Source: Gemmatimonadales bacterium
GTDB lineage: Bacteria; Gemmatimonadota; Gemmatimonadetes; Gemmatimonadales; GWC2-71-9
Direction: 5' to 3'
NCBI GenBank assembly: GCA_035602245.1
Contig: DATNMO010000007.1
Span: 5,981 to 69,980 of the forward strand
DNA: 64,000 bases
Of the stretch, positions 14,076 through 61,019 are shown one piece after another. A model generated the notes under the pieces. It was not told the origin of the DNA. It saw only the letters and a program-made list of their open reading frames with translations, and ran no database searches. Positions within the stretch are counted from its first letter, which is position 1. Each line of letters begins with the position of its first letter. A program made the position numbers and the translations under genes.

Positions 14076-14096
14076 ACGGCTGAATATGGAGTCTCG

Positions 14097-16573
<2,477 letters not shown>

Positions 16574-16577
<4 letters not shown>

Positions 16578-18994: not shown

Positions 18995-19028
18995 GCCGGA
19001 ACCACGCCCTTCCCTGGAGCTTCGCGTT

Positions 19029-19568: not shown

Positions 19569-19590
19569 CCGCGCTGCCCACTGACCCTCC

Positions 19591-20703: not shown

Positions 20704-20728
20704 GCGCTCCGTCACGCGCCCCGCGGCC

Positions 20729-38448: not shown

Positions 38449-38520
<72 letters not shown>

Positions 38521-38536
38521 CTCGCTTCATCACACG

Positions 38537-49295: not shown

Positions 49296-50090
49296 TCAAG
49301 TAATCACACCCCTGAACACAATCCGCCCCTCCCCAGCAAGCCAGACATCGTCATAGCGGCCGCTCCCAGCCTTGGCCGCCTTGATCCCAAGCAAGCGCCC
49401 GCTGCGGGTCTGGATGTTGATGGGTAGGCGTCCCAATCCCCATTCCTGGATCGCACACGCCGCGGCGACCGCGCCCGTCCCGCAGGCTAGCGTCTCGGCC
49501 TCGACGCCACGCTCGTACGTCCGCATCCGCCATACCCCCTGTTCGCCGGGAGAGATAAAGTTGATGTTCGCGCCATCCGGCGCGAGCGCCGGGTCGAACC
49601 GCAGCGCGGCACCGCGCCGCATGAGGTTCACGGCGTCTACCTCGTCGAGCAGCACCACGAGATGGGGCACGCCCACCTGCCCCAGGGCTGCCTGCAGCTC
49701 CCCTGGGACCAATGCCAGGCCCCCGACCGGTGCGGGCGGCTCTACCGCAGCGAGATGGAGCTCGGCCCGGCCCGGCTCCGTCACCCGGCTACGATAGGTG
49801 CCGGCGTCAGTCTCGAGATCCATGCCATCCGGCGATGCCAGGCTCAAGTGCACGGCGAGGGTGGTGCTGCACAGGGCCGCGTTTCCGCACATGGCGGCGT
49901 GGGAACCGTCGGCATTGTAGTAGATCATGCGGGCCGTGCCGGGCCGAGAGCCCGGGCCGACGAACACGACGCCATCCGCGCCCACTCCGGTGCCGCGGGC
50001 GCAGACGATCTGCATGTCTTCGGGCGACCAGTCGGCCGGCGCGGACACGCGCGCGTCCACCATGACGAAATCGTTCCCCGATCCCGTCAT
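49296..50090 (-). CDS. dapF: Diaminopimelate epimerase (start uncertain; conserved strand begins at CTG 50105)
   Basis: GSGNDFVMVD, catalytic Cys motifs MCGNA and ACGTG. Confidence 0.88.
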   Translation of the reverse strand: MTGSGNDFVMVDARVSAPADWSPEDMQIVCARGTGVGADGVVFVGPGSRPGTARMIYYNADGSHAAMCGNAALCSTTLAVHLSLASPDGMDLETDAGTYRSRVTEPGRAELHLAAVEPPAPVGGLALVPGELQAALGQVGVPHLVVLLDEVDAVNLMRRGAALRFDPALAPDGANINFISPGEQGVWRMRTYERGVEAETLACGTGAVAAACAIQEWGLGRLPINIQTRSGRLLGIKAAKAGSGRYDDVWLAGEGRIVFRGVIT

Positions 50091-50110
50091 CTTGTAGACG
50101 TGCAGGCCGG

Positions 50111-50833
50111 TTAGATGCGGCCGAACCAGGCCATGAGCCGGAGGCGCGGCACCTTCCACACCGCCTCGCGGACGATGGCCCGATTCATCTTGCTCTGCCC
50201 CTCGGTCCGGTCGACGAACACGATCGGAATTTCCCGGAGCTTGAACCCTTTTCGCCATGCGCGAACGCTCATCTCGATTTGGAAAGCGTACCCGTTGGAG
50301 ACGACCTGGGACAGGTCAATCGCTTCGAGCACGCGCCTGCGAAAGCACTTGAACCCACCTGTCAGGTCCCAGATCCTGAGGCCGGTCACCCAACGGGCGT
50401 AGATGTTGGCTAAGTACGATAGCACGAGACGGCCCATCGGCCAATTGACGACCGTCACCCTCCCCTGCAGGTAGCGCGACCCCAGGACGAGGTCGGCATC
50501 CGTAATGGCCTTGAGAAAGTCGGTGAGGTGCGCCGGGTCGTGCGAGAAGTCGGCATCCATCTCGAAGACGTAGTCGTATCCCCGCTCGAGCGCCCACTTG
50601 AAGCCGGTGATGTAGGCGGTGCCCAGCCCCAGCTTTCCCTCTCGATGGATCGTGTGGACCCGGGGATTGGTGCGGGCGAGCTCGTCGGCAATCACGCCCG
50701 TGCCGTCAGGTGAATTGTCGTCCACGACGAGTATCTCGAGCCGCGGATCCTGCGCCAGCACCTGGGGCGCGATCTGGGGGAGATTCACCGCCTCGTTGTA
50801 GGTCGGGATGACCACCAGCGCGCGCTCAGGCAC
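50111..50833 (-). CDS. Polyprenol-phosphate mannosyl/glycosyl-transferase (DPM1/Ppm1-like GT2)
   Basis: VVIPTYNEA.NL, VVDDNSPDGT, EMDADFSHDP. A GTG start at 50833 overlaps the upstream stop by 8 nt. Confidence 0.85.
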   Translation of the reverse strand: MPERALVVIPTYNEAVNLPQIAPQVLAQDPRLEILVVDDNSPDGTGVIADELARTNPRVHTIHREGKLGLGTAYITGFKWALERGYDYVFEMDADFSHDPAHLTDFLKAITDADLVLGSRYLQGRVTVVNWPMGRLVLSYLANIYARWVTGLRIWDLTGGFKCFRRRVLEAIDLSQVVSNGYAFQIEMSVRAWRKGFKLREIPIVFVDRTEGQSKMNRAIVREAVWKVPRLRLMAWFGRI

Positions 50834-53135
50834 GCCGGCGTCTCCGGGCGATCGCGGGCGCCACCCAGACGGCAACGACCAGGAGCAACGAAACGAGCGT
50901 GACGATCTTGCCGCGCCCATATGCCCCGCTGCTGAAGGCAAGCTCCACGCGATTCGCTCCCGCCTGCAGCGGCACCGTGATGAGTGTCCAGTCTCCTCGC
51001 AGGACCGGTGCCGGCGCCCCGTTTACAGTGGCGCGCCAATCAGGATACCAGTTCTCGGCTACGAGCAGGTACGACGGCGTCGTCGGAGACGGATCGAGCG
51101 TAATGGTCATGCGGCCCGGTTCCCATTGCGTCACCGTGGCGCGCGCGGCACTCGGAGCCGGCAGCTGCTCGAGCGGAGGGACGGTGTTGCCTACGCGCGC
51201 GTCGAGCAGCACCACGCGGTCGTACGCCATGCGGGGATCCACCAGCGTCGTCACGATCTGCGCCGAATCGAGCGTCACCGCGGCCGGCACGACCCGCGCG
51301 TACGGCGCAGGCGTGCTCCGCTCAAAGAGGTGTGCCGGCGTGCCCGAGGAAGTCATCGCGTCCCGCAGCACCCGGGTAAAGCCCGGGATGGAGTCGAGAC
51401 CTTGTGCGAGCGCGGGAACGATCACCCACCGCACGGCGAACAGGTCCCAGAGGTGCAGGTTCGCCAGATTGCGCCACTCCCCGCGCCCGCCCATCACGTC
51501 GTCGAAGTAGCGGATCTCGACACCGTGCTCGCCTAGGAGCTGAGGTACGTCCAGCGCCATCAAGACTGCGCCCGGATACACGGCATGGTGTGAGCCGAGG
51601 AATGGGCCGAGGTCGAGGGCTCGAGTAGGCGCCGCGGGCGCAGCCGCTCTGATGTGCTCGGTGACGGGATCGGGGCGAAAGAGATCGCGATCGGTCGTGC
51701 TGTACGTCCAAAACGGTTTTGCGTTGAGCCAGAGATCGGCGCCGACCACGAGGGCCAGTAGGACGGTCCAGCGCGCGGGCGTCAGCCGGCCCCGCAGCCC
51801 GGCCCAGGCCAGGGCCGCGACGGCCGCGAGTGCCGCGGCGCTCGTGACCGCGCCGAAGGTGATGTCGGCTTTCGCGACCGACTGGGCGTGACTGATGGCG
51901 ACCGCCATGTTGCCGAAGACGCCGGCGGCGGCCAGCAGGGCCAGCACCGCGGCGGCGATGAACCAGACGCGGACGTGCATGTTGCACTTGGCCTCGTCGC
52001 TGCGCCGTTCCAGCCGCTCCACACCAAAGGCGGCGAAACACGAGACGATGAACGCGACGACGAAGAATGCCATCCCGGGTGCGCGCATCTGCTTGACGTA
52101 CGGCATGACCGTCCACCAAAGACGGTAGAACGGCGTGCCACTGCCCAGGCCGATCAGGAGGAACAGCAGCCCGATGCCGCCGAGCCAGAGCCGCAGCCTC
52201 GCGTCCTTCCCTGCCCCGGCGCCCAGCACCGCCAGCGCGACGACGGGCAGTCCAAGGTATTCGGAGTGCAGCTTGATCGGGTTCGATCCCCAGTACGCCG
52301 TGCCCTGGCCCACGAAGTTCTTGAGGAAGAACTCGGGGAGGTGCATCCAGGGAATCGCGTAGCTCGTCGCCCCGGCGAAGCCGCCTTGATACCCGCCCGC
52401 GCGCGATGACAGCGGGATATGGACGAACGCCGGGAAGAGCTGCACCGCCGCGATCCCAAACCCGAGCGCGACCGCGGCCAGCGCCAGCCCCAAGCGACTG
52501 AAGCGATCCGCGGGCGCGGCCGTCGAAGCTGTGCCGAAGGCGAGAAACAGGGCGAACAGTCCCGCCGCAATCAGCATGTAGTAGGTGACCTGGACGTGCT
52601 GGCTGAGTATGCTGAGGCCCACGCCGAGCGCGGTCAGGCCGTACCCGGAGAGGCGGCGATCGCGCATCCCCATCACGAGCCCGAGCAGCACGAGCGGTAG
52701 CAGCGCCGTGACGACGAGCTTGCCGTCGTGTCCCGGCTGGACATACGAAGCGACGACGCCCGAGAGTTGATACGCGATCCCGCCGACGACCGCGCCGGCC
52801 CATGACACCTGGAGCCGCCGCAGCAGCAGGTAGGTGAACAGACCGGCCAGAACGTAGTGAACGAAGAAACCGATGTTGATGACTGTGGCGGTCGGCAGCA
52901 CGAGGCGGAGAAACGCCGTCGGGTAAAGGACGTCGCCGGTGCCGAGCGCGCCCACGTAGGGCATGCCTGCAAAGATCTCGGGATTCCACAGCGGAACGTG
53001 TCCCAGACGGCGCCACCACTCGGCGCCCCAGCCCCGGAAGGGCAGCCCGGCTGTGACCTGGTCGCTCCACGGTCCGGCCAGCCATTTCCCCTGCAGCATG
53101 GGCAAGCTGAGGATCGCGATCCAGAGCGTCAGCAA
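50826..53135 (-). CDS. YfhO-family polytopic membrane protein (putative GT-C glycosyltransferase)
   Basis: More than 12 predicted TM segments, LWNPEIFAGMPY motif, periplasmic C-terminal domain with the YfhO-typical ENWYPDWRATVNGAPAPVLRGDW...AGANRVELAF and a terminal TM. Confidence 0.7.
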   Translation of the reverse strand: MLTLWIAILSLPMLQGKWLAGPWSDQVTAGLPFRGWGAEWWRRLGHVPLWNPEIFAGMPYVGALGTGDVLYPTAFLRLVLPTATVINIGFFVHYVLAGLFTYLLLRRLQVSWAGAVVGGIAYQLSGVVASYVQPGHDGKLVVTALLPLVLLGLVMGMRDRRLSGYGLTALGVGLSILSQHVQVTYYMLIAAGLFALFLAFGTASTAAPADRFSRLGLALAAVALGFGIAAVQLFPAFVHIPLSSRAGGYQGGFAGATSYAIPWMHLPEFFLKNFVGQGTAYWGSNPIKLHSEYLGLPVVALAVLGAGAGKDARLRLWLGGIGLLFLLIGLGSGTPFYRLWWTVMPYVKQMRAPGMAFFVVAFIVSCFAAFGVERLERRSDEAKCNMHVRVWFIAAAVLALLAAAGVFGNMAVAISHAQSVAKADITFGAVTSAAALAAVAALAWAGLRGRLTPARWTVLLALVVGADLWLNAKPFWTYSTTDRDLFRPDPVTEHIRAAAPAAPTRALDLGPFLGSHHAVYPGAVLMALDVPQLLGEHGVEIRYFDDVMGGRGEWRNLANLHLWDLFAVRWVIVPALAQGLDSIPGFTRVLRDAMTSSGTPAHLFERSTPAPYARVVPAAVTLDSAQIVTTLVDPRMAYDRVVLLDARVGNTVPPLEQLPAPSAARATVTQWEPGRMTITLDPSPTTPSYLLVAENWYPDWRATVNGAPAPVLRGDWTLITVPLQAGANRVELAFSSGAYGRGKIVTLVSLLLVVAVWVAPAIARRRRRA

Positions 53136-53202
53136 CCCCGTCGCGGCGAGCGTGGGATGGGCCGGGACGTACGGTGTGTAGGGCGTTACCGCGGGAGCGT
53201 TG

Positions 53203-54126
53203 TTAGGGCGACTCAGAAGGCCTCTCCGGTGGCGAGTGGCGCACTAGCACGATGGCGAGCAGCGCCGCGCCGGCTTCTGTGACCGTGAGCAATACGCGCG
53301 AGCCCACACTCACCGCCACCGCCCCACCGCTGCCGAGGGCCGGCGTGAGCAGGCTGATCATGACGAGCTCGCGGACGCCGATGCCCCCGGGTGCGAACAG
53401 CGCTAAAGTGCCCAGAATGTAGCTGAGAGTGAAGGCGCCGGCTGCAGCGGCATAGGTGAGGTGCGTGTCCGGGAGCAAGCCGCGGACGAACAGCCAGAAC
53501 GCGACGCCGTAGGTCAACCATCCCAGGAACATCAGTGCTCCCGCGAGTGCCACCGCCGACAGCGGCAGCGGCGTGAGGGGGCTCGCCGTGCTCATCAACC
53601 GGCCCAGCCACCGGGCCGTGGGTCCCCACACCAGGACGCCGAGCGATGCCAGCGCGAGCCCGAAGCCGGCGACGAGCCGCAACGCCGACGTTGCCTGCGG
53701 CGTGGCAGCCGCGACGACCGCCACTCCGGTGCCGAGGACGAGTGCTTGGAAAGCGACGGCGGAGGCGGCAGCGGCGCCGCCGCGCACGCCCGCACGCTGC
53801 GCCAGTACGACCAGCCCCGTGACGCTCCAGATCTTGCCGGGAACGTAGCGTCCGAGATTCGACAGGCTCCAGACGCGTGCCGCGACGCCGAACGGGATTC
53901 GTTGCGCCCACCCGGCCAGGAGCCGCCGCCATGACTCGATATAGAACGCGTACGTGAGGAACACCGCAAGCGTGGCCAGCGCCAGCCAGCCGGGTTGCAC
54001 GTCGAGATTCACGTGCAGCGAGCGGAACTCCGTCCAGTTCCGCTGCACCGTCCGTGCGACGAGCACAACAACGACCAGGGCGACGGCCCCCTGGATTGCC
54101 CAGAGCCACCGCCGCGTGTTGGTCAC
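53203..54126 (-). CDS. UPF0104 / flippase-like (LPG-synthase-TM type) membrane protein
   Basis: About 8 TM segments. The conserved pattern SLSNLGRYVPGKIW and PGGIGVRE is typical of this family. Confidence 0.65.
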   Translation of the reverse strand: MTNTRRWLWAIQGAVALVVVVLVARTVQRNWTEFRSLHVNLDVQPGWLALATLAVFLTYAFYIESWRRLLAGWAQRIPFGVAARVWSLSNLGRYVPGKIWSVTGLVVLAQRAGVRGGAAAASAVAFQALVLGTGVAVVAAATPQATSALRLVAGFGLALASLGVLVWGPTARWLGRLMSTASPLTPLPLSAVALAGALMFLGWLTYGVAFWLFVRGLLPDTHLTYAAAAGAFTLSYILGTLALFAPGGIGVRELVMISLLTPALGSGGAVAVSVGSRVLLTVTEAGAALLAIVLVRHSPPERPSESP

Positions 54127-54139
54127 CCGATGCGGGGGG

Positions 54140-54757
54140 TTAGTCCTTGACGAACTTGTAGGCGACGGAGCGCGCGAGCATCCACCACGGCGCGGGAATT
54201 GGCGGATAGAAGTACGTGCCGCCCCAATCCACCAGCCGGAGGCCGTTCATCTCTCCCAGCCGGCTGATCGTCTGCCGGGTCCAGCTGTAGATGTGCCCCT
54301 GCTTGTCCGCGACGTGGAAGAGATTCCAGATGACCTCCTTCACGTGATAGGGATTAGGCACGGAGACCATCCACACGCCCCCGGGCCGCAGAACTCGATG
54401 GATTTCGCCCGCCGTATTGTACGCGGTGGGCGTGTGTTCGAGGACCTCTACCATGAAGACGTAATCGAACGAGGCGTCGGGAAACGGGAGCCCCGACGTG
54501 ATATCGTGAATCATGATATCCGGAGCGGCGAACTCAGGGGCGATGTCGAGTCCCTGATACTTCACGTCCCGCGGCAGGTACTTGCGGAGGTCGCCGTTGC
54601 GCGAGCCGATGTCGAGCACCGCGCTGCCAGGGCGTACCTGTGCCAGCTGCATGTGCTTGCGGAAGCGCATCCGCTCCTCGCCCGAATTCCGCCAATTGGC
54701 CCGTTCGCTGTAGAACTTGGTGAGCGCGGGAGACGACGTCGCAATCCGTTCAGCCAT
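54140..54757 (-). CDS. Class I SAM-dependent methyltransferase
   Basis: VLDIGSRNGD motif I, FDYVFMVEVLEH. Confidence 0.8.
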   Translation of the reverse strand: MAERIATSSPALTKFYSERANWRNSGEERMRFRKHMQLAQVRPGSAVLDIGSRNGDLRKYLPRDVKYQGLDIAPEFAAPDIMIHDITSGLPFPDASFDYVFMVEVLEHTPTAYNTAGEIHRVLRPGGVWMVSVPNPYHVKEVIWNLFHVADKQGHIYSWTRQTISRLGEMNGLRLVDWGGTYFYPPIPAPWWMLARSVAYKFVKD

Positions 54758-54852
54758 CTTTCGAAGTCCTTATGAGTCGCGTAGTTGTGGTCGACGCGGA
54801 CGGAAAGATAGTTGCCCCGGCAGGCATGGAGAAGGGTTATAGTATCACCCCC

Positions 54853-56058
54853 ATGCGCATTCTTCACGTGGTGACGGCGTTCCCTCGCACTCCCGACGAC
54901 GTCATCACCCCGTGGCTGGTGGAGCTGCTGCAGCGCCTGCGGGCCGCGGGCCACGAGGTCGAGGTGTTCACCTCGGCGTACAAGGGTGCTGGCGACCAGG
55001 TCTTCGCGGGAATCCCCGTCCATCGCTTCCGGTACTTCTTCCGCCGCTGGGAAAACCTGACCCACGAGGAGACGGCGCCGGACCGGATGCGGCGGTCCCT
55101 GCTCTATCGCCTGATGCCGTTCTGGTTCGTCAGCGCCGGGATGATCGCGATCTGGCGTCTGGCCCGCCGCCGGTCGTACGACGTGATCCACGTGCACTGG
55201 CCGCTGCCCCTGGCGCTTTTCGGGTGGGCGGCCCAGCGCGCGCGCCGTGCGCGCCCCACACCGATCGTCACGACGTTTTACGGCGTCGAGCTGCGCTGGG
55301 TAAAGAGCGCGCTCAAACCGCTCAAGCGGTTCATCGCGTGGGCCGCGCGCCGGTCCGCTCGCGTCGTGGCGATCTCGTCGTACACGGCTGCGGAGCTGCA
55401 GGAGCTGGTGGACGTGCCGGTCGATGTCATTCCCTACACCGCCGCCCTGCCCGCTCCGGAATCACGGACCCGAACGGCGGGGGGGGGGGGCGTGCCCACG
55501 GTGCTCTTCGTCGGCCGGCTGGTGGAGCGCAAGGGCGTCACGCACCTCATCGAAGCGGTGGCACGTCTGCGCGAGCGGTCCCTGCGGCTGGAGGTGGTCG
55601 GCGACGGCCCCGAGCGCCCGCGACTGGAAGCCCTCGCGCACAGCCGCGGCGTCGCCGACCGCGTCGTGTTTCGGGGGAAGATCTCCGATGCCGAGCTGCG
55701 CCGCGCGTACGCGGCCGCGGACGTCTTCGTATTGCCGTCGGTGCTGGATGCGCGCGGCGATACGGAAGGCTTGGGGGTCGTGCTACTCGAGGCGATGAAT
55801 TACGCGGTCCCCGTGATTGCGAGCCGGATCGGCGGCATCGTGGACATCGTCGCGGATGGGGAAACGGGTCTGCTCGTACCACCGGGGGATGAGACGGCGC
55901 TCGCGTCCGCGCTGGAGCGAGTGCTGAGCGATCCGGCCCTGGCTCGACGGCTCGGCGAAGCGGGCCGCGAGCGTCTCGCCGAGCGGTTCAACTGGGACGC
56001 GATAACCGCTCGATGGGATGCGGTGTATCGCAGTCTTGCCCGATCGCGGGAGGGCTAG
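54853..56058 (+). CDS. GT4 (GT-B) glycosyltransferase containing a G12 homopolymer
   Basis: MRILHVVTAFPR N-terminus. C-terminal LFVGRL...KG and EGLGVVLLEAMNYAVPVIASRIGG motifs. Confidence 0.85.
   Translation: MRILHVVTAFPRTPDDVITPWLVELLQRLRAAGHEVEVFTSAYKGAGDQVFAGIPVHRFRYFFRRWENLTHEETAPDRMRRSLLYRLMPFWFVSAGMIAIWRLARRRSYDVIHVHWPLPLALFGWAAQRARRARPTPIVTTFYGVELRWVKSALKPLKRFIAWAARRSARVVAISSYTAAELQELVDVPVDVIPYTAALPAPESRTRTAGGGGVPTVLFVGRLVERKGVTHLIEAVARLRERSLRLEVVGDGPERPRLEALAHSRGVADRVVFRGKISDAELRRAYAAADVFVLPSVLDARGDTEGLGVVLLEAMNYAVPVIASRIGGIVDIVADGETGLLVPPGDETALASALERVLSDPALARRLGEAGRERLAERFNWDAITARWDAVYRSLARSREG
55479..55490 (+). repeat. Homopolymeric G12 tract inside the GT4 coding sequence
   Basis: Direct count gives 12 consecutive G. 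They encode the Gly4 linker (TAGGGGVPT) between the two Rossmann halves. Confidence 0.95.
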
Positions 56059-57014
56059 CGCCCGTTCTTCTCTCTCAACCGCTCCACCTCCCGCTCCAAC
56101 GTCCGCAGCTCTTCCCTCATCCCCGCCAGCATTTCGCCCACGAAGCCGAAGCCGAACAGCACCACGCCGGAAATCACCAGGACCATGATCAGGTCGAGGA
56201 GGGGCCGGAAGCCCACGTGTGGCGGACCGAATCGCAGGTAGAGCGACACGGCGCCGACGAGCACTCCCAGCAGAAATAGCAGCGCGCCCGCGAAGCCGAA
56301 GAACATCATCGGCTTGCGGCCGAAGCGCAGCTGGAACCAGACCGACAGGAGATCGAGAACCCCCACCGGGATCCGCCCGATCCCGAACTTCGAGGTCCCC
56401 GCACGCCGCGGGTGGAGCGGTACCGGGCGCTCGGCGAGGCGGAATCCCTGCGCCGCGGCGATCACGACCATGAAGCGGTGCCAATCCGGGCGGGTGGGCA
56501 GCGCCTCCATCACCTCGCGGCGGTAGGCTTTTACGGAGTTCAGGTCGGTGACGCGCACCCCGAAGAGCCAGCGGCACAGGGCGTTGTACACGCTGGAGAC
56601 GAACCGCTTTTCGTATTGGCCCTGCTTGGCCCCGGTAACGATGTCCGCCTGCCCTGCCAGAATGGGCGCGACGAGACCGGGGATCTCGGCCGGCAGATAC
56701 TGCAGGTCCGCGGGATAGAAGACTAGCACGCGGCCGCGCGCTGCGTCGGCGGCCGACTTGAGCGCGTCCGCGATGCCCCGCTGGGTCCGGTGGGTGACGA
56801 TGCGAACGAAGGCGTGCTTGGCAGCGAGCTCCTCGAGTACCCGCGCCGTCCCGTCGTGGCTGCCGTCGTTGACGATCACCACCTCGCACGCGTAGGGCAG
56901 CGGCAGCAGCGCCTCACGGGTCAAGCGCACGAACTCGGGGAGGTTCTCCGCCTCGTCCTTCGCGGGCACGAGCACGCTGACCTCGGGGACCGAAGACGGG
57001 CTGGCGAGGCTCAC
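56055..57014 (-). CDS. Membrane-anchored GT2 (GtrB/ArnC-like polyprenyl-phosphate glycosyltransferase)
   Basis: VLVPAKDEAENL, VNDGSHDGT, and two C-terminal TM helices. A GTG start at 57014 overlaps the rpoN stop (GTGA). Confidence 0.82.
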   Translation of the reverse strand: MSLASPSSVPEVSVLVPAKDEAENLPEFVRLTREALLPLPYACEVVIVNDGSHDGTARVLEELAAKHAFVRIVTHRTQRGIADALKSAADAARGRVLVFYPADLQYLPAEIPGLVAPILAGQADIVTGAKQGQYEKRFVSSVYNALCRWLFGVRVTDLNSVKAYRREVMEALPTRPDWHRFMVVIAAAQGFRLAERPVPLHPRRAGTSKFGIGRIPVGVLDLLSVWFQLRFGRKPMMFFGFAGALLFLLGVLVGAVSLYLRFGPPHVGFRPLLDLIMVLVISGVVLFGFGFVGEMLAGMREELRTLEREVERLREKNGR

Positions 57015-58474
57015 AGGCGCTTGCGCATCCGGGCCGGCAAAATGCCGAGCTGATCGCGGTATTTGGCGACGGTGCGCCGGGCGATCTTCACCCCTTTGCG
57101 CTCGAACATCTCCACGATCTGCTGGTCCGTGAGCGGCGCCTTCTCGGGCTCGTCGTCCACGAGCTTCTGAATCTGCGATTTGATCGACCGGGCACTGGCG
57201 TCCTCTCCGGTCGTGGTCGAGAGGCCGCTCGAGAAGAAGAATTTCAGCGGCAGCAGGCCGCGGGGCGTCTGCACGTACTTCTCGTTCGTGACCCGGCTCA
57301 CGGTGCTCTCGTGCATGCTGATGACGTCCGCCACCTCGCGCAGCGTGAGCGGCTTCAGGTGATCGATGCCCTTCTCGAAAAAGTCCCGCTGCCGGTCCAC
57401 GATGAAGTTCATCACCTTGAGCATCGTCTGGCGGCGCTGCTCGATCGCCTGAATCATCCAATGGGCGCTGTTCAGCCGCTGATTGATGAACTCCTTGCTT
57501 TCGGTGTCGTATTTCTTCTTGTCGCGGGCGATCTCCTGGTACGTCTTGGAAATGCGCAGCCGCGGCAGCCCGCTGTCGTTCAAGAAGACGTGGTACTTAT
57601 CGTCGATTTTCTCGACGATCAAGTCGGGAATGATGTACGCGTCATTGCTGGCCGAGTGCTGCAAGCCGGGCTTGGGATCCAGCCGGGCGAGCTCGTCGGC
57701 GGCGCGCTGCACCTCGTCGGGGGCGAGGCCAAAGCGCTTGCCCAGGTCGCTCCAGCGGTGGGCGATGAGATCGTCGAACGCATCCTTCACGAGGCGGTAC
57801 ACCAGCGAGTCGGTCCGCTTCAGATTCTCGAGCTGCACCAGCAGGCACTCGCGCAGGTTGCGCGCCCCCGTTCCCGGGGGATCGAGCTGCTGGATGACGC
57901 GGAGCATCTCCTCCGTCTCGGCCATCGTGAAGGGCACGACGTTCAGGTCGCTCTCCGACTCGGCCTCGTACTCTTCGAGCAGCTGGTTGGCGCCCTTGGT
58001 GATGCGCTCGAGATCCGCCTGCAGGTAGCCGTCCTCCCCGATGTTACCGAGGAATTCTTCCGCCAACAGCTGTTGCCGCGGCGTCAAGTCGAGCATCTGG
58101 GTCTGCTCGCGCAGGTAATCGATCAGGTCCTTGCTCTCGACCGTCACCGGCTCGACGTATTCCCGCGCGTCGCTGTACGTGCCGCTGGGCACGCTGTGCT
58201 CGGTGCGGTCGGCAAGCAGGATGTTCTCCCAATCGGGCTCGTCCTCGGCGGGCTTGTCTTTCTCGGGCTTGTTCTGCTGCTGCTCGGCGGCGGTCGCTTG
58301 GACTTCTTCCTCGGGCTCGATCAGCTCGAGGAACGGGTTGCCCAACAGCTCTTGCTTGAGGTGCTGCTCCAGGTCGAGCAGCGGCATATACAGGAGGTCC
58401 ATCGCCTGATAGAGGCGTGGATTGATCCGCAGGTCCTGGCGGAGGGCCGCGTGCTGGTGCAGGCCGGTCTTCAT
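57011..58474 (-). CDS. rpoN: RNA polymerase sigma-54 factor
   Basis: N-terminal Gln/Leu region and the C-terminal RpoN box ARRTVAKYR. Confidence 0.93.
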   Translation of the reverse strand: MKTGLHQHAALRQDLRINPRLYQAMDLLYMPLLDLEQHLKQELLGNPFLELIEPEEEVQATAAEQQQNKPEKDKPAEDEPDWENILLADRTEHSVPSGTYSDAREYVEPVTVESKDLIDYLREQTQMLDLTPRQQLLAEEFLGNIGEDGYLQADLERITKGANQLLEEYEAESESDLNVVPFTMAETEEMLRVIQQLDPPGTGARNLRECLLVQLENLKRTDSLVYRLVKDAFDDLIAHRWSDLGKRFGLAPDEVQRAADELARLDPKPGLQHSASNDAYIIPDLIVEKIDDKYHVFLNDSGLPRLRISKTYQEIARDKKKYDTESKEFINQRLNSAHWMIQAIEQRRQTMLKVMNFIVDRQRDFFEKGIDHLKPLTLREVADVISMHESTVSRVTNEKYVQTPRGLLPLKFFFSSGLSTTTGEDASARSIKSQIQKLVDDEPEKAPLTDQQIVEMFERKGVKIARRTVAKYRDQLGILPARMRKRL

Positions 58475-59667
58475 GCCGCGGGTGACAAGCGCGAGCGCAG
58501 CCGCGCGGTGAGGGTGGGGCCGAGGTAGAGGTCGGCCACGCGGTCGTCGAACACGAGCTGGCGGACCGTGCCGGCGACCTGTACCCGGCCTTCGAACATG
58601 ATGTAGGCCCGATCAACGATATCCAGCGTCTGCTCCACGTTGTGGTCGGTGATGAGGACGCCGATGCCGCGATGCCGCAGGCCGGCGACGATGGTCTGGA
58701 TGTCGTGTACGGCGATCGGATCGACGCCCGCAAACGGCTCGTCGAGGAGCAGGAACTTGGGTTCGGTCACGAGCGCGCGCGTGATCTCGAGCCGCCGCCG
58801 CTCGCCGCCGGAGAGCTGATACGCCTTCTGTTGGCGCAGGTGTTTGATCGCCAGTTCGTCGAGCAGAGACTCCAGGCGCCGCTTCCGCTCCTCCTCGTCG
58901 ATGTTCTGCGTCTCGAGAATGGCCAGCACATTCTCCTCGACGCTGAGCTTGCGAAACACCGAGGGTTCCTGCGCCAGGTAGCCGATGCCGGCGCGTGCGC
59001 GCTGGTACATCGGGAGCGTCGTGATCTCCCGGCCATCGAGCCGGATCTTGCCCTCTTCGGGCCGGATCAGCCCGGTGATCATGTAAAACGTCGTGGTCTT
59101 CCCCGCCCCGTTCGGCCCCAGCAGGCCCACGATCTCGCCCTGGGCGAGTTCGACGGAGACGTTGTTGACGACCCGGCGGCCTTTATACGCCTTGACCAGG
59201 TTCTGCGCCTCGAGCCGGCTTCCCCCCCGCACCACCGGGTGCTCCCCGCTCACTGCTTCGCTGCGGGAGACGGTCTGCTCGGCGAGCTCCAGGAAGCGGC
59301 GCGCGGCCGCGTCACGCGCGGGGGGCATGCTCGCCCACACGTCTGGCGCGAAGGCGACCGGCGCCTCGCCCCACAGGGAACCGATCGGCAGCACGAGCAC
59401 CTTGAGCATGGCCAGCCGCGGCAGCACCGATGTTGCGAGATACGCGCGCGCATCGTCCACCGAGAGGTGGCCGGCGTCGGGCAGCTTCGCGCCCTTGGTG
59501 TCCGCGCGCAGCTTGAGGAATTCCTCCCGGTACGCGACGGCAAGGTCGCCAAACGTGGCGCGGCCCTGGTCGTCAGCGATGCGCGCGAGCGCGGCTGCCG
59601 CGAGCGCGAGCGACGAGTCGCGCGTGGCGAACAGCTCGGTAAACCGCTCGGGAGGAGAGGCCGTCAT
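58471..59667 (-). CDS. lptB: LPS export ABC ATPase LptB with an unrecognised ~150-aa N-terminal extension
   Basis: C-terminal 245 aa carry Walker A GPNGAGKTT, LSGGERRRLEI and LLLDEPFAGVDP. The ORF starts at ATG 59667 in an ATGA overlap with the lptA-like stop. The extension has high GC3 codons and no in-frame stop. Confidence 0.8.
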   Translation of the reverse strand: MTASPPERFTELFATRDSSLALAAAALARIADDQGRATFGDLAVAYREEFLKLRADTKGAKLPDAGHLSVDDARAYLATSVLPRLAMLKVLVLPIGSLWGEAPVAFAPDVWASMPPARDAAARRFLELAEQTVSRSEAVSGEHPVVRGGSRLEAQNLVKAYKGRRVVNNVSVELAQGEIVGLLGPNGAGKTTTFYMITGLIRPEEGKIRLDGREITTLPMYQRARAGIGYLAQEPSVFRKLSVEENVLAILETQNIDEEERKRRLESLLDELAIKHLRQQKAYQLSGGERRRLEITRALVTEPKFLLLDEPFAGVDPIAVHDIQTIVAGLRHRGIGVLITDHNVEQTLDIVDRAYIMFEGRVQVAGTVRQLVFDDRVADLYLGPTLTARLRSRLSPAA

Positions 59668-61019
59668 GGGATCGGCGGAGGGGGTGGGGCCACGGGGGGG
59701 GGCGTCGCCGTACGGGTGCTGTCGGCCGCCACGGCGGGCCGGGGCTCGAGATTGACGCCGTCCGCCTTGCCGGCCACCACGACACGCTCGATCCGGTCGC
59801 GCTTCATCGCGACCGCGATCTGTGCGCCGCGGGAGTAGTTGATCGCCGGCCCGGCAGTGGAATCGCGGGTGTTGTAATTGTGCGTCAGCGCGCGCGCCGA
59901 GCCGCGAGCGAGGACCTGCCGCAGGCGGGATTGCTCGTGGCCGGCGGAGTCCTGTTCCTGCGCGAAGTGCGCCGTGAGGGTATCGCCGCTGATCCAGTCG
60001 GTGTCGGCCGCGTGGCTGGTCGAGTCCCGCTTGGCGGTGGAGAGCGCGTGGCCGAATGCCCGCGTTTCCGTCAGCACCTCGCCCGGCGAGTCGATCGCCA
60101 GCGAATCCGCCTGAATGGTGTTGAGCGTGGACACGGCGTTGGGGCGTGTGGAATCTCCCCACGCAAACGTCTGCTGCAGCATCCGGTCTGCGACGACCAG
60201 ATGAATGGTGTCAGCGGTCAGGACCCAGTCGGCGCCGGTGGCCTTCCCGTGTCCCAGGGCCTTCACGAGGCGCACCTCGCGCTGCTCCAGTGCCAGCTCG
60301 ATCCGCGTGCCCACGAGCCTGTAACCTTTCGCGCCTGTTCCCGGACGCCCTCTCCCCTCGACGCTGGGGCTGCCGACGAGGACGCCGAACCCCTGGATCT
60401 GATCGAGGAGCATCGAATCGGAGCGCGACACAAAGTCGCTGCGGTCCACGGTGACTTTCCCGCCCCCCCACATGCGGTCGTCCCCTTTGAAGCGGATCCG
60501 GTCGGCGACGATGATGTAGGGCTCGGCCGAGTCGCCGCCCTCCGCACGATACTCGACCGTGGGACGGGACGTGGCGTACATCTCGACCGTATCGCGAATG
60601 CCCTTGGCGGCGCGCCAATACCGGAGATTCGGTCCGCGCAGCACGGAGCCTGTGCGCCGGTTCACGGCCACGACTCTGTTGTGCGCCTCGAGCCGCTCGT
60701 CGCGGAGAAAGTAGGATGCGTAGTTCGCGTCTAGTGCGAGCCCGGTATCGCGGATCCGCACGCGGCCGATGAGGTCGAGCCGCCCCAGCGCCGTGTAGTG
60801 CGCGAAGCTATCGGCCGAGATCGTGCTGTTCGTTCCATCACAATGCGCCAGCACGCCGCCGCCGCCGTGCAACGTCTTCAGCCCGGCCGCATCCGTGATT
60901 TCGTGGTAGTGTCCCATCGAATCGATGGCGACTCGGCAGGGCCGCCCCCCGGCCGTATCGGGCGGGGCTCCCTGCTGCAGTAGCAGCGCAACGACGAGGA
61001 GGGACGCGGTCGGCATCAT
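59664..61019 (-). CDS. lptA: Large OstA/LptA-like periplasmic protein (451 aa) with Pro-rich C-terminus
   Basis: Signal peptide and repeated OstA-type beta-jellyroll-like strands. Position between lptC and lptB. Tail TPPPVAPPPPPIP. Confidence 0.65.
   Translation of the reverse strand: MMPTASLLVVALLLQQGAPPDTAGGRPCRVAIDSMGHYHEITDAAGLKTLHGGGGVLAHCDGTNSTISADSFAHYTALGRLDLIGRVRIRDTGLALDANYASYFLRDERLEAHNRVVAVNRRTGSVLRGPNLRYWRAAKGIRDTVEMYATSRPTVEYRAEGGDSAEPYIIVADRIRFKGDDRMWGGGKVTVDRSDFVSRSDSMLLDQIQGFGVLVGSPSVEGRGRPGTGAKGYRLVGTRIELALEQREVRLVKALGHGKATGADWVLTADTIHLVVADRMLQQTFAWGDSTRPNAVSTLNTIQADSLAIDSPGEVLTETRAFGHALSTAKRDSTSHAADTDWISGDTLTAHFAQEQDSAGHEQSRLRQVLARGSARALTHNYNTRDSTAGPAINYSRGAQIAVAMKRDRIERVVVAGKADGVNLEPRPAVAADSTRTATPPPVAPPPPPIP

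What the first reader, a model, noticed from the sequence alone, without database searches (positions are those of the whole stretch)
50111..57014. Polyprenyl-phosphate-sugar / flippase-like / YfhO (GT-C) glycosylation cluster abutting the Lpt-Kdo-rpoN locus
The cluster holds six adjacent genes:
- a DPM1/Ppm1-like GT2 (50111-50833);
- a 769-aa YfhO-family polytopic protein (50826-53135);
- a UPF0104 flippase-like membrane protein (53203-54126);
- a SAM methyltransferase (54140-54757);
- a GT4 (54853-56058);
- a second, membrane-anchored GtrB/ArnC-like GT2 (56055-57014), which overlaps the rpoN stop.
The logic of lipid-linked sugar synthesis, flipping and GT-C transfer on the outer face is established for GtrABC, ArnC/ArnT and CsbB/GtcA/YfhO. 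YfhO itself has been characterised only for teichoic-acid glycosylation in monoderms. In a diderm with no teichoic acids, physically linked to lptCAB, kdsA and kdsD, the acceptor is unknown. It could be LPS core or lipid A, a lipoprotein, or another periplasmic glycoconjugate. The acceptor may also be methylated.
Basis: partly seen in the sequence, partly recalled or inferred. Interest (0 to 1): 0.55.

Follow-up and report, generated by a model that had tools for sequence, protein, structure and literature searches.

The report
Conserved YfhO envelope glycosylation gene cluster
Six neighbouring genes, conserved across the soil phylum Gemmatimonadota, most likely attach sugars to a still unknown envelope molecule on the outer face of the inner membrane; the machinery is a variant of known sugar-decorating systems, not a new kind.

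Summary
All six genes are at the stated coordinates and every family call passes curated thresholds. One detail was not stated: the GT4 lies on the + strand, the other five on the - strand.

- **Fold tests.** The 769-aa protein models confidently (pLDDT 86.8) as a GT-C enzyme; its top 21 PDB matches are all GT-C. The UPF0104 protein matches only MprF.
- **Conservation.** rpoN→GT2b … UPF0104–YfhO–GT2a–dapF is kept in about 52 of 56 informative Gemmatimonadota loci.
- **Variable cassette.** A 1.1–7.4 kb stretch between GT2b and UPF0104 always holds at least one GT4, with methyl-, acetyl-, deacetyl- or FemAB-type tailoring genes that differ by lineage.
- **Beyond the phylum.** The same module (GT2b, GT4, UPF0104, YfhO, GT2a, sometimes the methyltransferase) recurs in candidate division TA06 and unnamed lineages. 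None of those loci has lpt or rpoN nearby, so the Lpt linkage is lineage-specific and says little about the acceptor.

[quoted passage not shown] The acceptor is unresolved; I favour a GT4-made lipid-anchored glycan, then proteins, then LPS.

Verdict: new variant of a known kind, moderate interest.

The parts
56055..57014 (-). GT2b: GtrB/ArnC-type polyprenyl-phosphate glycosyltransferase. It has a GT-A catalytic domain plus two C-terminal TM helices at residues 238-256 and 275-293. Its start GTG overlaps the rpoN stop (GTGA).
   Evidence: - PF00535, 80 bits.
- Full-length match to the ArnC model, 82.7 bits, below the equivalog cut-off of 529.
- PDB: ArnC 9hwj E=1e-23 and GtrB 5ekp E=2.5e-19, both over the full length.
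- TM hairpin; overlap with rpoN.
- Median 71% identity across the related loci.
- 48% identity to the orthologue in the out-of-phylum locus L087.
54853..56058 (+). GT4 retaining glycosyltransferase of the BshA/MshA/PimA-PimB clade. It is the only cluster gene on the + strand and is one variant of the variable cassette.
   Evidence: - Pfam Glycos_transf_1, 155 bits, plus Glyco_transf_4.
- Best NCBIfam hit is BshA at 136.8 bits, below the cut-off of 273.7.
- PDB relatives include BshA, PimB', MshA and PimA.
- Orthologues at 59-81% identity occur in only 12 of 56 loci; the others carry a GT4 with ~29-37% identity to the window's.
54140..54757 (-). Class I SAM-dependent methyltransferase with no TM segment. 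It is a cassette gene, first of the MT-UPF0104-YfhO-GT2a-dapF unit, and ends 13 nt before UPF0104.
   Evidence: - Pfam Methyltransf_23/11/25.
- No equivalog match.
- Present in 32 related loci.
- A methyltransferase sits between UPF0104 and YfhO in the distant locus L084, and another lies in the TA06 locus L082.
53203..54126 (-). UPF0104 / PplT / MprF-flippase-domain protein of 307 aa with about 8 TM helices. It is the candidate lipid translocator and lacks an aminoacyl-PG synthase domain.
   Evidence: - PF03706, 47.3 bits against 33.4, covering profile positions 3-293 of 302.
- AF2 model pLDDT 83.4.
- The five matches with Foldseek probability 1.00 are all MprF (9j8q, 6lvf, 9j8s, 9goe, 7f47), TM-score 0.52-0.61 normalised to the query; the next match has probability 0.28.
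- Directly upstream of YfhO in 52 of 56 loci and in L082, L084 and L087.
50826..53135 (-). YfhO-family GT-C glycosyltransferase. The architecture is an N-terminal multi-TM domain, a periplasmic beta-sandwich domain and a C-terminal TM anchor. D25 in the first external loop is invariant. The true start probably lies upstream, since conserved coding runs to ~53201.
   Evidence: - PF09586, 52.9 bits.
- AF2 pLDDT 86.8, pTM 0.88.
- Foldseek top 21 hits are all GT-C: AftD E=2.7e-9, ArnT TM 0.50-0.52, PglB, STT3, EmbA/B/C.
- No sequence relative in the PDB.
- D25 is invariant down to 23% identity.
- EL1 is the most conserved segment.
- N-terminus issue.
50111..50833 (-). GT2a: soluble DPM1/Ppm1/AglJ-type polyprenyl-phosphate sugar synthase of 240 aa with no TM segment. 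Its start overlaps the YfhO stop by 8 nt.
   Evidence: - PF00535, 111 bits.
- Best NCBIfam hits are AglJ, PpgS and Dol-P-hexose transferase, all below cut-off.
- PDB: P. furiosus Dol-P-Man synthase 5mlz, E=2.3e-27.
- No TM segment.
- Median 79% identity in the phylum.
- 56-62% identity in TA06 and the other lineages, directly downstream of YfhO there too.
49296..50126 (-). dapF (diaminopimelate epimerase), co-transcribed context. Its start is either 16 nt inside GT2a or 21 nt after it.
   Evidence: - TIGR00652, 182 bits against 114.65.
- Sequence at the junction.
- Present downstream of GT2a in 61 of 65 loci.
57011..58474 (-). rpoN (sigma-54), upstream context. It is the last housekeeping gene of the kdsA-kdsD-lptC-orf-lptB-rpoN row, and GT2b is translationally coupled to it.
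   Evidence: - TIGR02395, 422 bits.
- Overlap with GT2b.
- Conserved upstream of GT2b in 51 of 56 loci.

Best explanation
**Tier 1 (about 0.75): one multi-component transmembrane glycosylation system.**
- On the cytoplasmic face, two GT2 enzymes charge a polyprenyl phosphate with sugars. GT2b is GtrB/ArnC-like and membrane-anchored. GT2a is DPM1-like, soluble and translationally coupled to YfhO.
- A cytoplasmic GT4 builds a small lipid-linked glycan. In this genome a SAM methyltransferase tailors it. In other lineages the tailoring genes are acetyltransferases, a deacetylase or a FemAB-like enzyme.
- The MprF-like UPF0104 protein moves a lipid-linked intermediate to the periplasmic leaflet. 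It takes the place of the GtrA/GtcA flippase of classical systems.
- The YfhO GT-C enzyme then transfers sugar from polyprenyl-phosphate sugar to an acceptor on the periplasmic side.

**Tier 2 (about 0.35, inferred): the acceptor is the lipid-anchored glycan made by the GT4 and flipped by UPF0104.** The product would be a periplasmically elaborated glycolipid or lipoglycan. The logic is that of PIM/LM/LAM or LTA glycosylation. LPS would not be the target.

**Shown:** the gene content, the folds, the conservation and the variable cassette.
**Inferred:** the donors, the direction of flipping, the order of steps and the acceptor.

The confidence value of 0.6 refers mainly to tier 1.
For: **Enzyme identities**
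- GT2b matches ArnC and GtrB over its full length and has the C-terminal TM hairpin.
- GT2a matches Dol-P-Man synthase.
- YfhO has a GT-C fold with an invariant Asp in its first external loop.
- The UPF0104 model matches only MprF.
- No GtrA-family gene lies in the cluster.

**Operon evidence**
- Overlapping or near-abutting genes: rpoN/GT2b, MT/UPF0104 and YfhO/GT2a/dapF.

**Conservation**
- UPF0104-YfhO occurs in 52 of 56 loci and GT2a in 62 of 65.
- At least one GT4 lies between GT2b and UPF0104 in all 56 loci. In the minimal form it is a single GT4 about 10-40 nt upstream of UPF0104.

**Independent lineages**
- L087: GT2b…GT4-UPF0104-YfhO-GT2a.
- TA06 locus L082: MT, GT4 … UPF0104-YfhO-GT2a.
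- L084: UPF0104-MT-YfhO.
- L085: GT4-YfhO-epimerase-GT2a.

**Rates of change**
- The donor synthases are as conserved as LptB and RpoN (71-79% median identity).
- YfhO and UPF0104 sit at 51-53%.
- GT4 sits at 34%; it is non-orthologous in most loci.

**Precedents for tier 2**
- GT plus deacetylase plus stand-alone MprF-like protein makes glycosylated membrane lipids in P. aeruginosa (gpgSDF, PMC12713373) and C. difficile (hexSDF, PMC10128005).
- The closest solved relatives of the GT4 include BshA, MshA, PimA and PimB', and the Und-PP-glycan enzyme WlaC is far weaker (E=6e-12).
- A deacetylase-GT4-UPF0104 arrangement occurs in about 7-13 related loci.
- An archaeal neighbourhood of UPF0104, a GT-C-like protein and an AglD-like GT2 was described in 2015 (PMC5898192).
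Against: - No biochemical or genetic data exist for any Gemmatimonadota member.
- Flippase activity of stand-alone UPF0104 proteins has never been shown directly. GpgF and HexF are dispensable for lipid synthesis.
- Two donor synthases face one GT-C. One of them may serve a YfhO paralogue encoded elsewhere, such as L061, L070, L073 or L080.
- In L087 an EamA/ArnE-like small protein sits beside the GT2b orthologue, so it is ambiguous which lipid UPF0104 moves.
- In TA06, L087, L129 and L096, a phosphoglycosyl transferase and another GT2 follow GT2a. That arrangement fits a Und-PP-linked glycan as the acceptor or donor instead.
- GT2a orthologues are usually found without YfhO.
- The GT4 scores far below the GpgS equivalog cut-off: 72 against 480 bits.
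Confidence: 0.6

Rival explanations
1. Protein O-glycosylation. YfhO glycosylates periplasmic, inner-membrane or outer-membrane proteins. It could add single sugars from polyprenyl-P-sugar, as streptococcal PgtC2 and PgfM1 do. Or it could transfer a short, GT4-extended and tailored lipid-linked glycan en bloc, as predicted for Bacteroidota YfhO.
For: - YfhO-family enzymes glycosylate Ser/Thr-rich regions of membrane proteins (PMC12041528).
- YfhO is predicted to be the phylum-wide O-OTase of Bacteroidota, a relative in the FCB group (preprint).
- The module is phylum-wide and sits among housekeeping genes.
- The variable tailoring cassette resembles protein-glycan diversity loci.
- Beta-propeller plus Big_2 lipoprotein genes lie inside the cassette in about 20 loci and could be substrates, as the Cnm adhesins are in the pgf locus.
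- PGT genes adjoin the module in TA06 and L087.
Against: - No PGT or Wzx gene lies in the Gemmatimonadota locus.
- No glycoprotein is known in this phylum.
- The Bacteroidota prediction is itself untested.
- The window's cassette holds no candidate substrate gene.
- The nearest solved relatives of the GT4 include small-molecule and lipid glycosyltransferases (BshA, MshA, PimA, PimB'), while the Und-PP-glycan enzyme WlaC is far weaker.
Confidence: 0.3
2. LPS modification. GT2b and/or GT2a make a Und-P-sugar that YfhO adds to lipid A or core in the periplasm before Lpt export. This would be an ArnC/ArnT analogue.
For: - GT2b's best named relatives are ArnC.
- GT2b is translationally coupled to rpoN in the kdsA-kdsD-lptC-lptB-rpoN row, and this holds in 44 of 51 loci.
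- ArnT is among the best structural matches of YfhO.
- The genome has a complete lipid A block.
Against: - Outside Gemmatimonadota the same module lies nowhere near lpt or kds genes.
- Within the phylum the whole 20 kb region is collinear, so adjacency is not specific evidence.
- There are no arnA/B/D-type sugar-modifying genes, and GT2b scores 82.7 against 529 bits for ArnC.
- The always-present GT4, UPF0104 and tailoring cassette have no role in an Arn-type scheme.
Confidence: 0.15
3. Not one system. The GT4 and methyltransferase would serve a cytoplasmic pathway, for example BshA-like GlcNAc-malate synthesis and methylation for a bacillithiol derivative. UPF0104 would be a general phospholipid translocator. 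Only GT2 plus YfhO would form a glycosylation pair.
For: - BshA is the top NCBIfam hit and among the top PDB hits of both GT4 types.
- bshC lies in the window at 29445-30869.
- Gemmatimonadetes are predicted bacillithiol producers (PMC6282198).
- The GT4 is on the opposite strand here.
- E. coli UPF0104 (YbhN) is linked to phospholipid enzymes (preprint).
Against: - The GT4 scores 136.8 and 107 bits against the BshA cut-off of 273.7.
- A GT4 sits at this exact site in all 56 loci and abuts UPF0104 in the minimal form and in out-of-phylum L087.
- The site swaps between non-orthologous GT4s with acetyl-, deacetyl- and FemAB-type genes. That is unlike a conserved thiol pathway.
- The methyltransferase showed no named NmbA match among solved structures.
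Confidence: 0.1

Closest known systems
CsbB/GtcA/YfhO and GtlA/GtlB three-component teichoic-acid glycosylation (Bacillus, Listeria)
   Same: - A GtrB-type GT2 makes C55-P-sugar.
- A YfhO-family GT-C transfers it outside the membrane (PMC5836110 and PMC8035078, listed).
- The overall YfhO architecture is shared, including a match to the C-terminal part of PgfM2.
   Different: - The host is a diderm with lipid A genes.
- There is no GtrA/GtcA flippase; a UPF0104 protein is present instead.
- A second, DPM1-like synthase is coupled to YfhO.
- A GT4/tailoring cassette is always present.
- Only residues 90-465 match the Pfam YfhO model, and there is 23-35% identity even to other-phylum members of the same subfamily.
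[quoted passage not shown]
   Same: YfhO-family GT-C plus GtrB-type GT2, with extracytoplasmic transfer.
   Different: - Those systems are in monoderms.
- They are said to use a DXD motif, whereas here a single invariant Asp sits in 'SDQ'.
- They have no UPF0104 and no GT4 cassette.
Bacteroidota YfhO, predicted general O-oligosaccharyltransferase (bioRxiv 10.64898/2026.07.27.740950)
   Same: A YfhO-family protein that is phylum-wide, in a diderm, and treated as a core gene.
   Different: - That role is an untested prediction.
- It implies en bloc transfer from Und-PP-glycan.
- The gene context differs (mtnN-luxS or sahH).
- Sequence relatedness to the Gemmatimonadota subfamily was not tested here.
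Archaeal neighbourhood of UPF0104 (arCOG00899, also the C-terminal domain of AglD), a PMT/STT3-like protein (arCOG00563) and an AglD-like GT2 (PMC5898192)
   Same: The same triad: an MprF-like membrane protein, a GT-C-like enzyme and a Dol-P-sugar-synthase-type GT2. A second archaeal context of UPF0104, deacetylase and glycosyltransferase also has a counterpart here.
   Different: - The archaeal triad is linked to S-layer N-glycosylation.
- The GT-C family is different (not YfhO).
- It is also only a comparative-genomic prediction.
GpgSDF (P. aeruginosa GlcN-phosphatidylglycerol) and HexSDF (C. difficile aminohexosyl glycolipid)
   Same: A cytoplasmic lipid-glycosylating GT, a tailoring enzyme and a stand-alone MprF-like UPF0104 protein in one operon.
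   Different: - Those operons have no GT-C and no polyprenyl-P-sugar synthase.
- The window has a methyltransferase, not a deacetylase.
- The GT4 is below the GpgS cut-off.
ArnC/ArnE-F/ArnT lipid A aminoarabinose pathway
   Same: An ArnC-like GT2 is the closest named relative of GT2b, and ArnT is a top structural match of YfhO.
   Different: - There are no arnA/B/D genes.
- There is no SMR-type flippase in the window.
- The GT-C is YfhO, not the PMT_2 family.
- Equivalog cut-offs are not met.
Mycobacterial PIM/LM/LAM pathway (Ppm1, PimA/PimB', GT-C mannosyltransferases); comparison from my own knowledge
   Same: The same parts list: a DPM1-like polyprenyl-P-sugar synthase, PimA/PimB'-clade GT4s acting on a lipid at the inner face, an unidentified flip, then GT-C extension outside. 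PimA and PimB' are among the GT4's solved relatives, and the mycobacterial GT-C AftD is YfhO's best structural match.
   Different: - There is no evidence for phosphatidylinositol or lipoglycans in this phylum.
- The GT-C family is different.
- The resemblance is of logic only.

Membership tests
YfhO family (PF09586) / GT-C fold glycosyltransferases | Sequence match to the family model above the curated threshold | tested here: met
   PF09586 scores 52.9 bits against a gathering score of 28.5, but only residues 90-465 match. All 120 listed homologues carry PF09586.
YfhO family (PF09586) / GT-C fold glycosyltransferases | GT-C architecture: N-terminal polytopic membrane domain with long external loops plus an extracytoplasmic domain | tested here: met
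   The AF2 model has pLDDT 86.8 and pTM 0.88. The Foldseek top 21 PDB hits are all GT-C enzymes: AftD, ArnT, PglB, STT3 and Emb.
YfhO family (PF09586) / GT-C fold glycosyltransferases | Conserved acidic residue in the first extracytoplasmic loop | tested here: met
   D25 is invariant in 13, 61 and 19-sequence alignments, down to 23% identity. EL1 is the most conserved segment. Its placement on the periplasmic side is inferred from topology, not measured.
YfhO family (PF09586) / GT-C fold glycosyltransferases | Uses a polyprenyl-phosphate-linked sugar donor | not testable with these tools
   Only indirect evidence: two polyprenyl-P-sugar-synthase-type GT2 genes lie in the unit, one of them translationally coupled to YfhO.
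Classical three-component systems (GtrABC; CsbB/GtcA/YfhO) | GtrB-type GT2 with a C-terminal TM hairpin | tested here: met
   GT2b aligns full-length with GtrB 5ekp and ArnC 9hwj. It has TM segments at 238-256 and 275-293.
Classical three-component systems (GtrABC; CsbB/GtcA/YfhO) | Small GtrA/GtcA-family flippase encoded with the system | tested here: not met
   No such gene lies among the six cluster genes or the called genes ±10 kb. The only membrane protein besides YfhO and GT2b is UPF0104.
UPF0104 / PplT / MprF flippase domain (PF03706) | Family model above threshold and MprF-type fold | tested here: met
   PF03706 scores 47.3 against 33.4 over nearly the whole profile. The five Foldseek matches with probability 1.00 are all MprF structures, TM-score 0.52-0.61.
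UPF0104 / PplT / MprF flippase domain (PF03706) | Lipid translocation activity | not testable with these tools
   This is unproven even for the stand-alone homologues GpgF and HexF.
MprF (bifunctional aminoacyl-PG synthase/flippase) | C-terminal aminoacyl-phosphatidylglycerol synthase domain | tested here: not met
   The protein is 307 aa, entirely covered by PF03706, with no second domain.
DPM1/Ppm1/AglJ-type polyprenyl-phosphate sugar synthases | GT-A GT2 catalytic domain closest to Dol-P/polyprenyl-P sugar synthases | tested here: met
   GT2a against P. furiosus DPMS 5mlz gives E=2.3e-27 over residues 5-240. The top NCBIfam hits are AglJ, PpgS and Dol-P-hexose transferase.
DPM1/Ppm1/AglJ-type polyprenyl-phosphate sugar synthases | Equivalog-level identity with a characterised enzyme (which would name the sugar) | tested here: not met
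   AglJ scores 63.7 against 325, PpgS 52.8 against 370 and DPhHxTase 45.3 against 375. The sugar is unknown.
Arn pathway (ArnC/ArnT lipid A modification) | ArnC equivalog score, arnA/B/D genes and ArnT (PMT_2) present | tested here: not met
   GT2b scores 82.7 against 529 bits. No Arn-type sugar-modifying genes or PMT_2 protein lie in the cluster.
BshA (bacillithiol GlcNAc-malate synthase) | TIGR03999 equivalog cut-off | tested here: not met
   The window GT4 scores 136.8 and the common GT4 type 107.4, against 273.7.
GpgSDF/HexSDF-type glycolipid operons | Lipid-glycosylating GT, deacetylase and UPF0104 in one operon; GpgS equivalog score | tested here: inconclusive
   - GT4 next to UPF0104 is universal in relatives, and a VimE-like deacetylase is present in about 7-13 loci.
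- The window has a methyltransferase, not a deacetylase.
- The GT4 scores 72 against 480 bits for GpgS.

The most novel reading that the evidence does not exclude
Gemmatimonadota, and scattered other lineages such as candidate division TA06, use this module to build a phylum-wide surface glycoconjugate whose tailoring varies between lineages.

- The product would be either a periplasmically elaborated glycolipid or lipoglycan (an LTA/LAM-like molecule in a diderm) or a general protein O-glycan.
- A stand-alone MprF-like UPF0104 protein would act as the dedicated translocator of the lipid-linked intermediate.
- YfhO would act as the periplasmic transferase.

If true, this would be the first function for a YfhO enzyme in a diderm and the first defined cargo for a UPF0104 protein in a GT-C pathway.
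Probability: 0.3. Interest if true: 0.7.

Novelty: new variant of a known kind. Interest (0 to 1): 0.45.

Why it matters
- **YfhO in diderms.** YfhO enzymes have been characterised only in monoderms. The missing O-oligosaccharyltransferase of Bacteroidota has just been proposed to be a YfhO.
- **A testable module.** A phylum-wide, operon-embedded YfhO module in Gemmatimonadota has clearly paired donor synthases and a variable tailoring cassette. That makes a compact, genetically testable system for asking what YfhO does in diderms.
- **UPF0104.** It is also a natural test of whether stand-alone MprF-like proteins are flippases for lipid-linked glycans. This has been predicted since 2015 and never shown.
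- **Envelope of a little-studied phylum.** The envelope chemistry of Gemmatimonadota, abundant in soils, is essentially unknown.

Tried and rejected
- **Sigma-54 promoters.** A TGGCAC-N5-TTGC search gave 47 matches against 60 expected, with none in the relevant intergenic regions. There is no evidence of RpoN control.
- **Sigma-70 promoters and terminators.** The scan gave nothing usable in this 67% GC DNA.
- **PDB sequence search with the YfhO profile.** No solved relative exists.
- **YfhO paralogues.** The paralogue in L073 sits among peptidase, amidohydrolase and other genes unrelated to glycosylation, so it gave no functional clue; L061, L070 and L080 likewise showed none of the cluster's genes around them.
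- **P0197.** It looked like a methyltransferase-UPF0104 fusion, but the methyltransferase C-terminus is out of frame. I rejected it as a frameshift artefact.
- **Naming the organisms of the distant loci L083-L087.** Exact-sequence look-up of neighbouring proteins returned no names. Only L082 could be tied to candidate division TA06.
- **Methyltransferase as NmbA.** A PDB search showed only generic class I methyltransferases and no NmbA-named entry.
- **Is GT2a always paired with YfhO?** It is not. Most of the ~50 metagenome loci that lack the Gemmatimonadota markers (dapF, rpoN) carry GT2a without a detectable YfhO, often next to a PGT.
- **Exact look-up of window protein 38471-40177.** It failed.

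Full report
**1. Observation**

The window is 67-68% G+C. Its proteins have their closest relatives in Gemmatimonadales metagenome-assembled genomes.

ORFs exist at all six stated positions. Pfam and NCBIfam confirm each call:

| Gene | Coordinates, strand | Call |
|---|---|---|
| GT2a | 50111-50833, - | Soluble GT2. Best named relatives are AglJ, PpgS and Dol-P-hexose transferase. Best solved relative is Pyrococcus Dol-P-Man synthase, E=2.3e-27. |
| YfhO | 50826-53135, - | PF09586, 52.9 against 28.5 bits. |
| UPF0104 | 53203-54126, - | PF03706, 47.3 against 33.4 bits. |
| Methyltransferase | 54140-54757, - | Class I SAM methyltransferase. |
| GT4 | 54853-56058, + | Glycos_transf_1 plus Glyco_transf_4. 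|
| GT2b | 56055-57014, - | GT2 aligning end to end with ArnC (E=1e-23) and GtrB (E=2.5e-19). Two C-terminal TM helices. |

An independent gene call on an identical contig agrees. Upstream on the - strand lie rpoN, lptB, a 451-aa ORF, lptC, kdsD and kdsA. A bamA-skp-lpxD-lpxC/fabZ-lpxA-lpxB-lpxK block lies at 16.5-26.5 kb, so this is a diderm with LPS genes.

Gene junctions:
- GTGA is shared by the rpoN stop and the GT2b start.
- The methyltransferase and UPF0104 are 13 nt apart.
- YfhO and GT2a overlap by 8 nt.
- dapF starts within about 20 nt of the GT2a stop.
- The GT4 is the only + strand gene. It converges on GT2b and diverges from the methyltransferase across about 95 nt.

**2.

An AlphaFold2 model of the YfhO protein, built on 61 homologues, is confident (pLDDT 86.8, pTM 0.88). 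It shows:
- a polytopic N-terminal domain;
- a beta-rich periplasmic domain;
- a final TM helix.

Foldseek against the PDB returns GT-C enzymes only in the first 21 places. These are AftD (E=2.7e-9), ArnT (TM-score 0.50-0.52), PglB, STT3 and EmbA/B/C. No solved structure is related by sequence.

D25, just after the first hydrophobic segment, is invariant in alignments reaching 23% identity. The first external loop is the most conserved part of the protein. This is what is expected of the GT-C catalytic loop.

The UPF0104 model (pLDDT 83.4) has five matches with Foldseek probability 1.00, all MprF, with TM-score 0.52-0.61. The protein lacks the MprF synthase domain.

**3. Conservation within the phylum**

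A scan of one genome per species found more than 578 loci encoding a relative; all but two of the 80 kept are labelled Gemmatimonadota (one 'Chloroflexi' and one unclassified MAG share the cluster's gene order). I mapped the window's proteins onto the 80 kept loci.
- Of 56 loci with at least 8 kb upstream, 52 have UPF0104 directly before YfhO and GT2b further up, 51 have rpoN and 49 have lptB.
- Of 65 loci with downstream sequence, 62 have GT2a and 61 have dapF.
- The four exceptions are YfhO paralogues in unrelated contexts.
- The same collinearity extends to kdsA on one side and to surE on the other. The lpt adjacency is thus part of a generally frozen neighbourhood.

Median identity to the window:

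| Protein | Median identity |
|---|---|
| GT2a | 79% |
| GT2b | 71% |
| LptB | 81% |
| RpoN | 70% |
| YfhO | 53% |
| UPF0104 | 51% |
| GT4 | 34% |

**4. A variable cassette**

The stretch between GT2b and UPF0104 measures 1.15 to 7.4 kb. It always contains at least one GT4. The 56 loci sort as follows:

| Cassette type | Loci |
|---|---|
| Single same-strand GT4 ending about 10-40 nt before UPF0104 (minimal form) | 19 |
| Methyltransferase added to the minimal form | 9 |
| Window arrangement: a different GT4 on the opposite strand, in most cases with the methyltransferase | 12 |
| Other combinations (listed below) | 16 |

The remaining 16 loci combine some of these genes:
- WcaF-like hexapeptide acetyltransferases;
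- a VimE-like deacetylase;
- a FemAB/GNAT-type protein;
- a GATase1-like protein;
- unknown proteins;
- beta-propeller plus Big_2 lipoproteins.

The GT4 types share only about 29-37% identity. Their nearest solved relatives include BshA, MshA, PimA and PimB'.

So the conserved core is GT2b … GT4 – UPF0104 – YfhO – GT2a. The window's GT4 and methyltransferase are one allele of a diversifying tailoring site.

**5. Outside the phylum**

A full HMMER scan found 23,255 representative clusters related to the YfhO protein and 611 at E≤1e-30. Looking up the contigs of six distant representatives (23-36% identity; GC 26-62%) gave these contexts:

| Locus | Context |
|---|---|
| L082, cluster named candidate division TA06 | MT – GT4 – UDP-Glc dehydrogenase – epimerase – PMT_2 – GT2 – UPF0104 – YfhO – GT2a (60% identity) – GT2 – PGT |
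| L087 | GT2b (48%) – epimerase – EamA-like – GT4 – UPF0104 – YfhO – GT2a (62%) – GT2 – WecA-type PGT |
| L084 | two epimerases – UPF0104 – MT – YfhO, with overlapping genes |
| L085 | epimerase – GT4 – YfhO – epimerase – GT2a (56%) |
| L083, L086 | largely orphan |

None has lpt, kds or rpoN nearby. The module itself is the recurring unit, not its linkage to Lpt.

A metagenome scan seeded with GT2a found more than 580 relatives and shows that this synthase family is very widespread. It is only sometimes next to YfhO. More often it sits beside a phosphoglycosyl transferase and another GT2.

**6. Literature**

- YfhO-family enzymes glycosylate LTA and WTA (papers listed).
- Since 2025 they are also known to glycosylate Ser/Thr-rich disordered regions of streptococcal membrane proteins.
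- A July 2026 preprint predicts, in silico only, that YfhO is the long-sought O-oligosaccharyltransferase of Bacteroidota.
- Stand-alone UPF0104 proteins are proposed lipid translocators.
- They are encoded with lipid-glycosylating enzymes in gpgSDF of P. aeruginosa and hexSDF of C. difficile.
- In archaea, a neighbourhood of UPF0104, a PMT/STT3-like protein and an AglD-like GT2 was described in 2015, as was a UPF0104 – deacetylase – glycosyltransferase neighbourhood.

The Gemmatimonadota locus combines both patterns.

**7. Mechanism**

Shown:
- the identities, folds and topology classes of the proteins;
- the operon-like packing;
- the phylum-wide conservation;
- the recurrence in other lineages;
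- the variable cassette.

Inferred, in order:
1. GT2b and GT2a make polyprenyl-P-sugars at the inner face.
2. The GT4 and the tailoring enzymes build a small lipid-linked glycan.
3. UPF0104 moves a lipid-linked species outward.
4. YfhO transfers sugar on the periplasmic side.

I put about 0.75 on this general scheme. The probabilities below are for the whole picture and sum to about 0.9; the first three assume the general scheme holds.

| Reading | Probability | Main reasons |
|---|---|---|
| GT4-made, UPF0104-flipped lipid-anchored glycan | ~0.35 | The GT4-UPF0104 pairing, the experimental precedents, and the PimA/PimB'-type relatives among the GT4's nearest solved structures |
| Proteins | ~0.3 | The streptococcal data and the Bacteroidota prediction |
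| LPS | ~0.15 | Supported only by a lineage-specific adjacency and by ArnC/ArnT resemblance at family level |
| GT4 and methyltransferase belong to a bacillithiol-type cytoplasmic pathway | ~0.1 | bshC is in the window, but the BshA cut-off is missed by half and the site swaps non-orthologous genes |

**8. Verdict**

The system is a new variant of a known kind. It is a YfhO GT-C module in diderms with three distinctive features:
- an MprF-like protein in place of GtrA;
- two donor synthases;
- a hypervariable GT4/tailoring cassette.

Interest is moderate at 0.45. A specialist would not be astonished. Even so, the locus makes the role of YfhO in diderms, and the cargo of UPF0104 proteins, directly testable.

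Noticed in passing
window 58471-59667 (-): The lptB ORF carries an N-terminal extension of about 150 aa (gene aa) with no Pfam hit. The extension is conserved at 36-85% identity in 45 related Gemmatimonadota loci.
   Followed up: partly
window 59664-61019 (-): A 451-aa ORF with a signal-like N-terminus sits between lptC and lptB, where lptA is expected. It has no Pfam hit and is conserved in 37 related loci (36-82% identity).
   Followed up: partly
window 16574-26465 (+): An outer-membrane and lipid A block: bamA, skp, lpxD, an lpxC-fabZ fusion gene (415 aa, 20729-21976), lpxA, a Gfo/Idh/MocA oxidoreductase, lpxB, DUF374 and lpxK.
   Followed up: no
window 12514-16577 (+): A UVR-domain protein (McsA-like), an arginine-kinase-type McsB and ClpC lie in a row. 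To my knowledge this module is typical of Gram-positive bacteria; here it lies directly upstream of bamA in a diderm.
   Followed up: no
window 29445-30869 (+): A bshC gene (bacillithiol cysteine-adding enzyme; PF10079, 211 bits). This is relevant because the cluster's GT4 is BshA-like, though below the BshA cut-off.
   Followed up: partly
window 53135-53201 (-): The conserved N-terminal peptide of YfhO (…PYVPAHPTLAATG…) continues 22 codons upstream of the first canonical start codon, almost to the UPF0104 stop. No ATG, GTG or TTG lies there. The cause could be a non-canonical start, a shortened TM1 or a sequence error.
   Followed up: partly
related loci, e.g. L009 6018-7268, L008 4644-6659: Genes for lipoproteins with a Big_2 domain and a YncE-like beta-propeller are inserted in the variable cassette of about 20 related loci. 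One has a long poly-proline linker. They could be substrates of the system.
   Followed up: no
protein P0197 (metagenome contig, 2.9 kb): An apparent methyltransferase-UPF0104 fusion protein. The methyltransferase C-terminus is out of frame relative to the window's gene, so this is most likely a frameshift and not a true fusion.
   Followed up: yes
metagenome loci L088-L167: Orthologues of GT2a (52-65% identity) occur in lineages with GC from 0.30 to 0.73. Most often they sit next to a Bac_transf phosphoglycosyl transferase and a ~280-aa GT2. This conserved trio is distinct from the YfhO module.
   Followed up: partly
L087 5348-5713; L082 6672-8276: In the out-of-phylum versions of the module, an EamA/ArnE-like 121-aa membrane protein (L087) and a second GT-C of the PMT_2 family (L082) accompany the YfhO genes. 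Those lineages therefore seem to run two lipid-linked sugar routes side by side.
   Followed up: no
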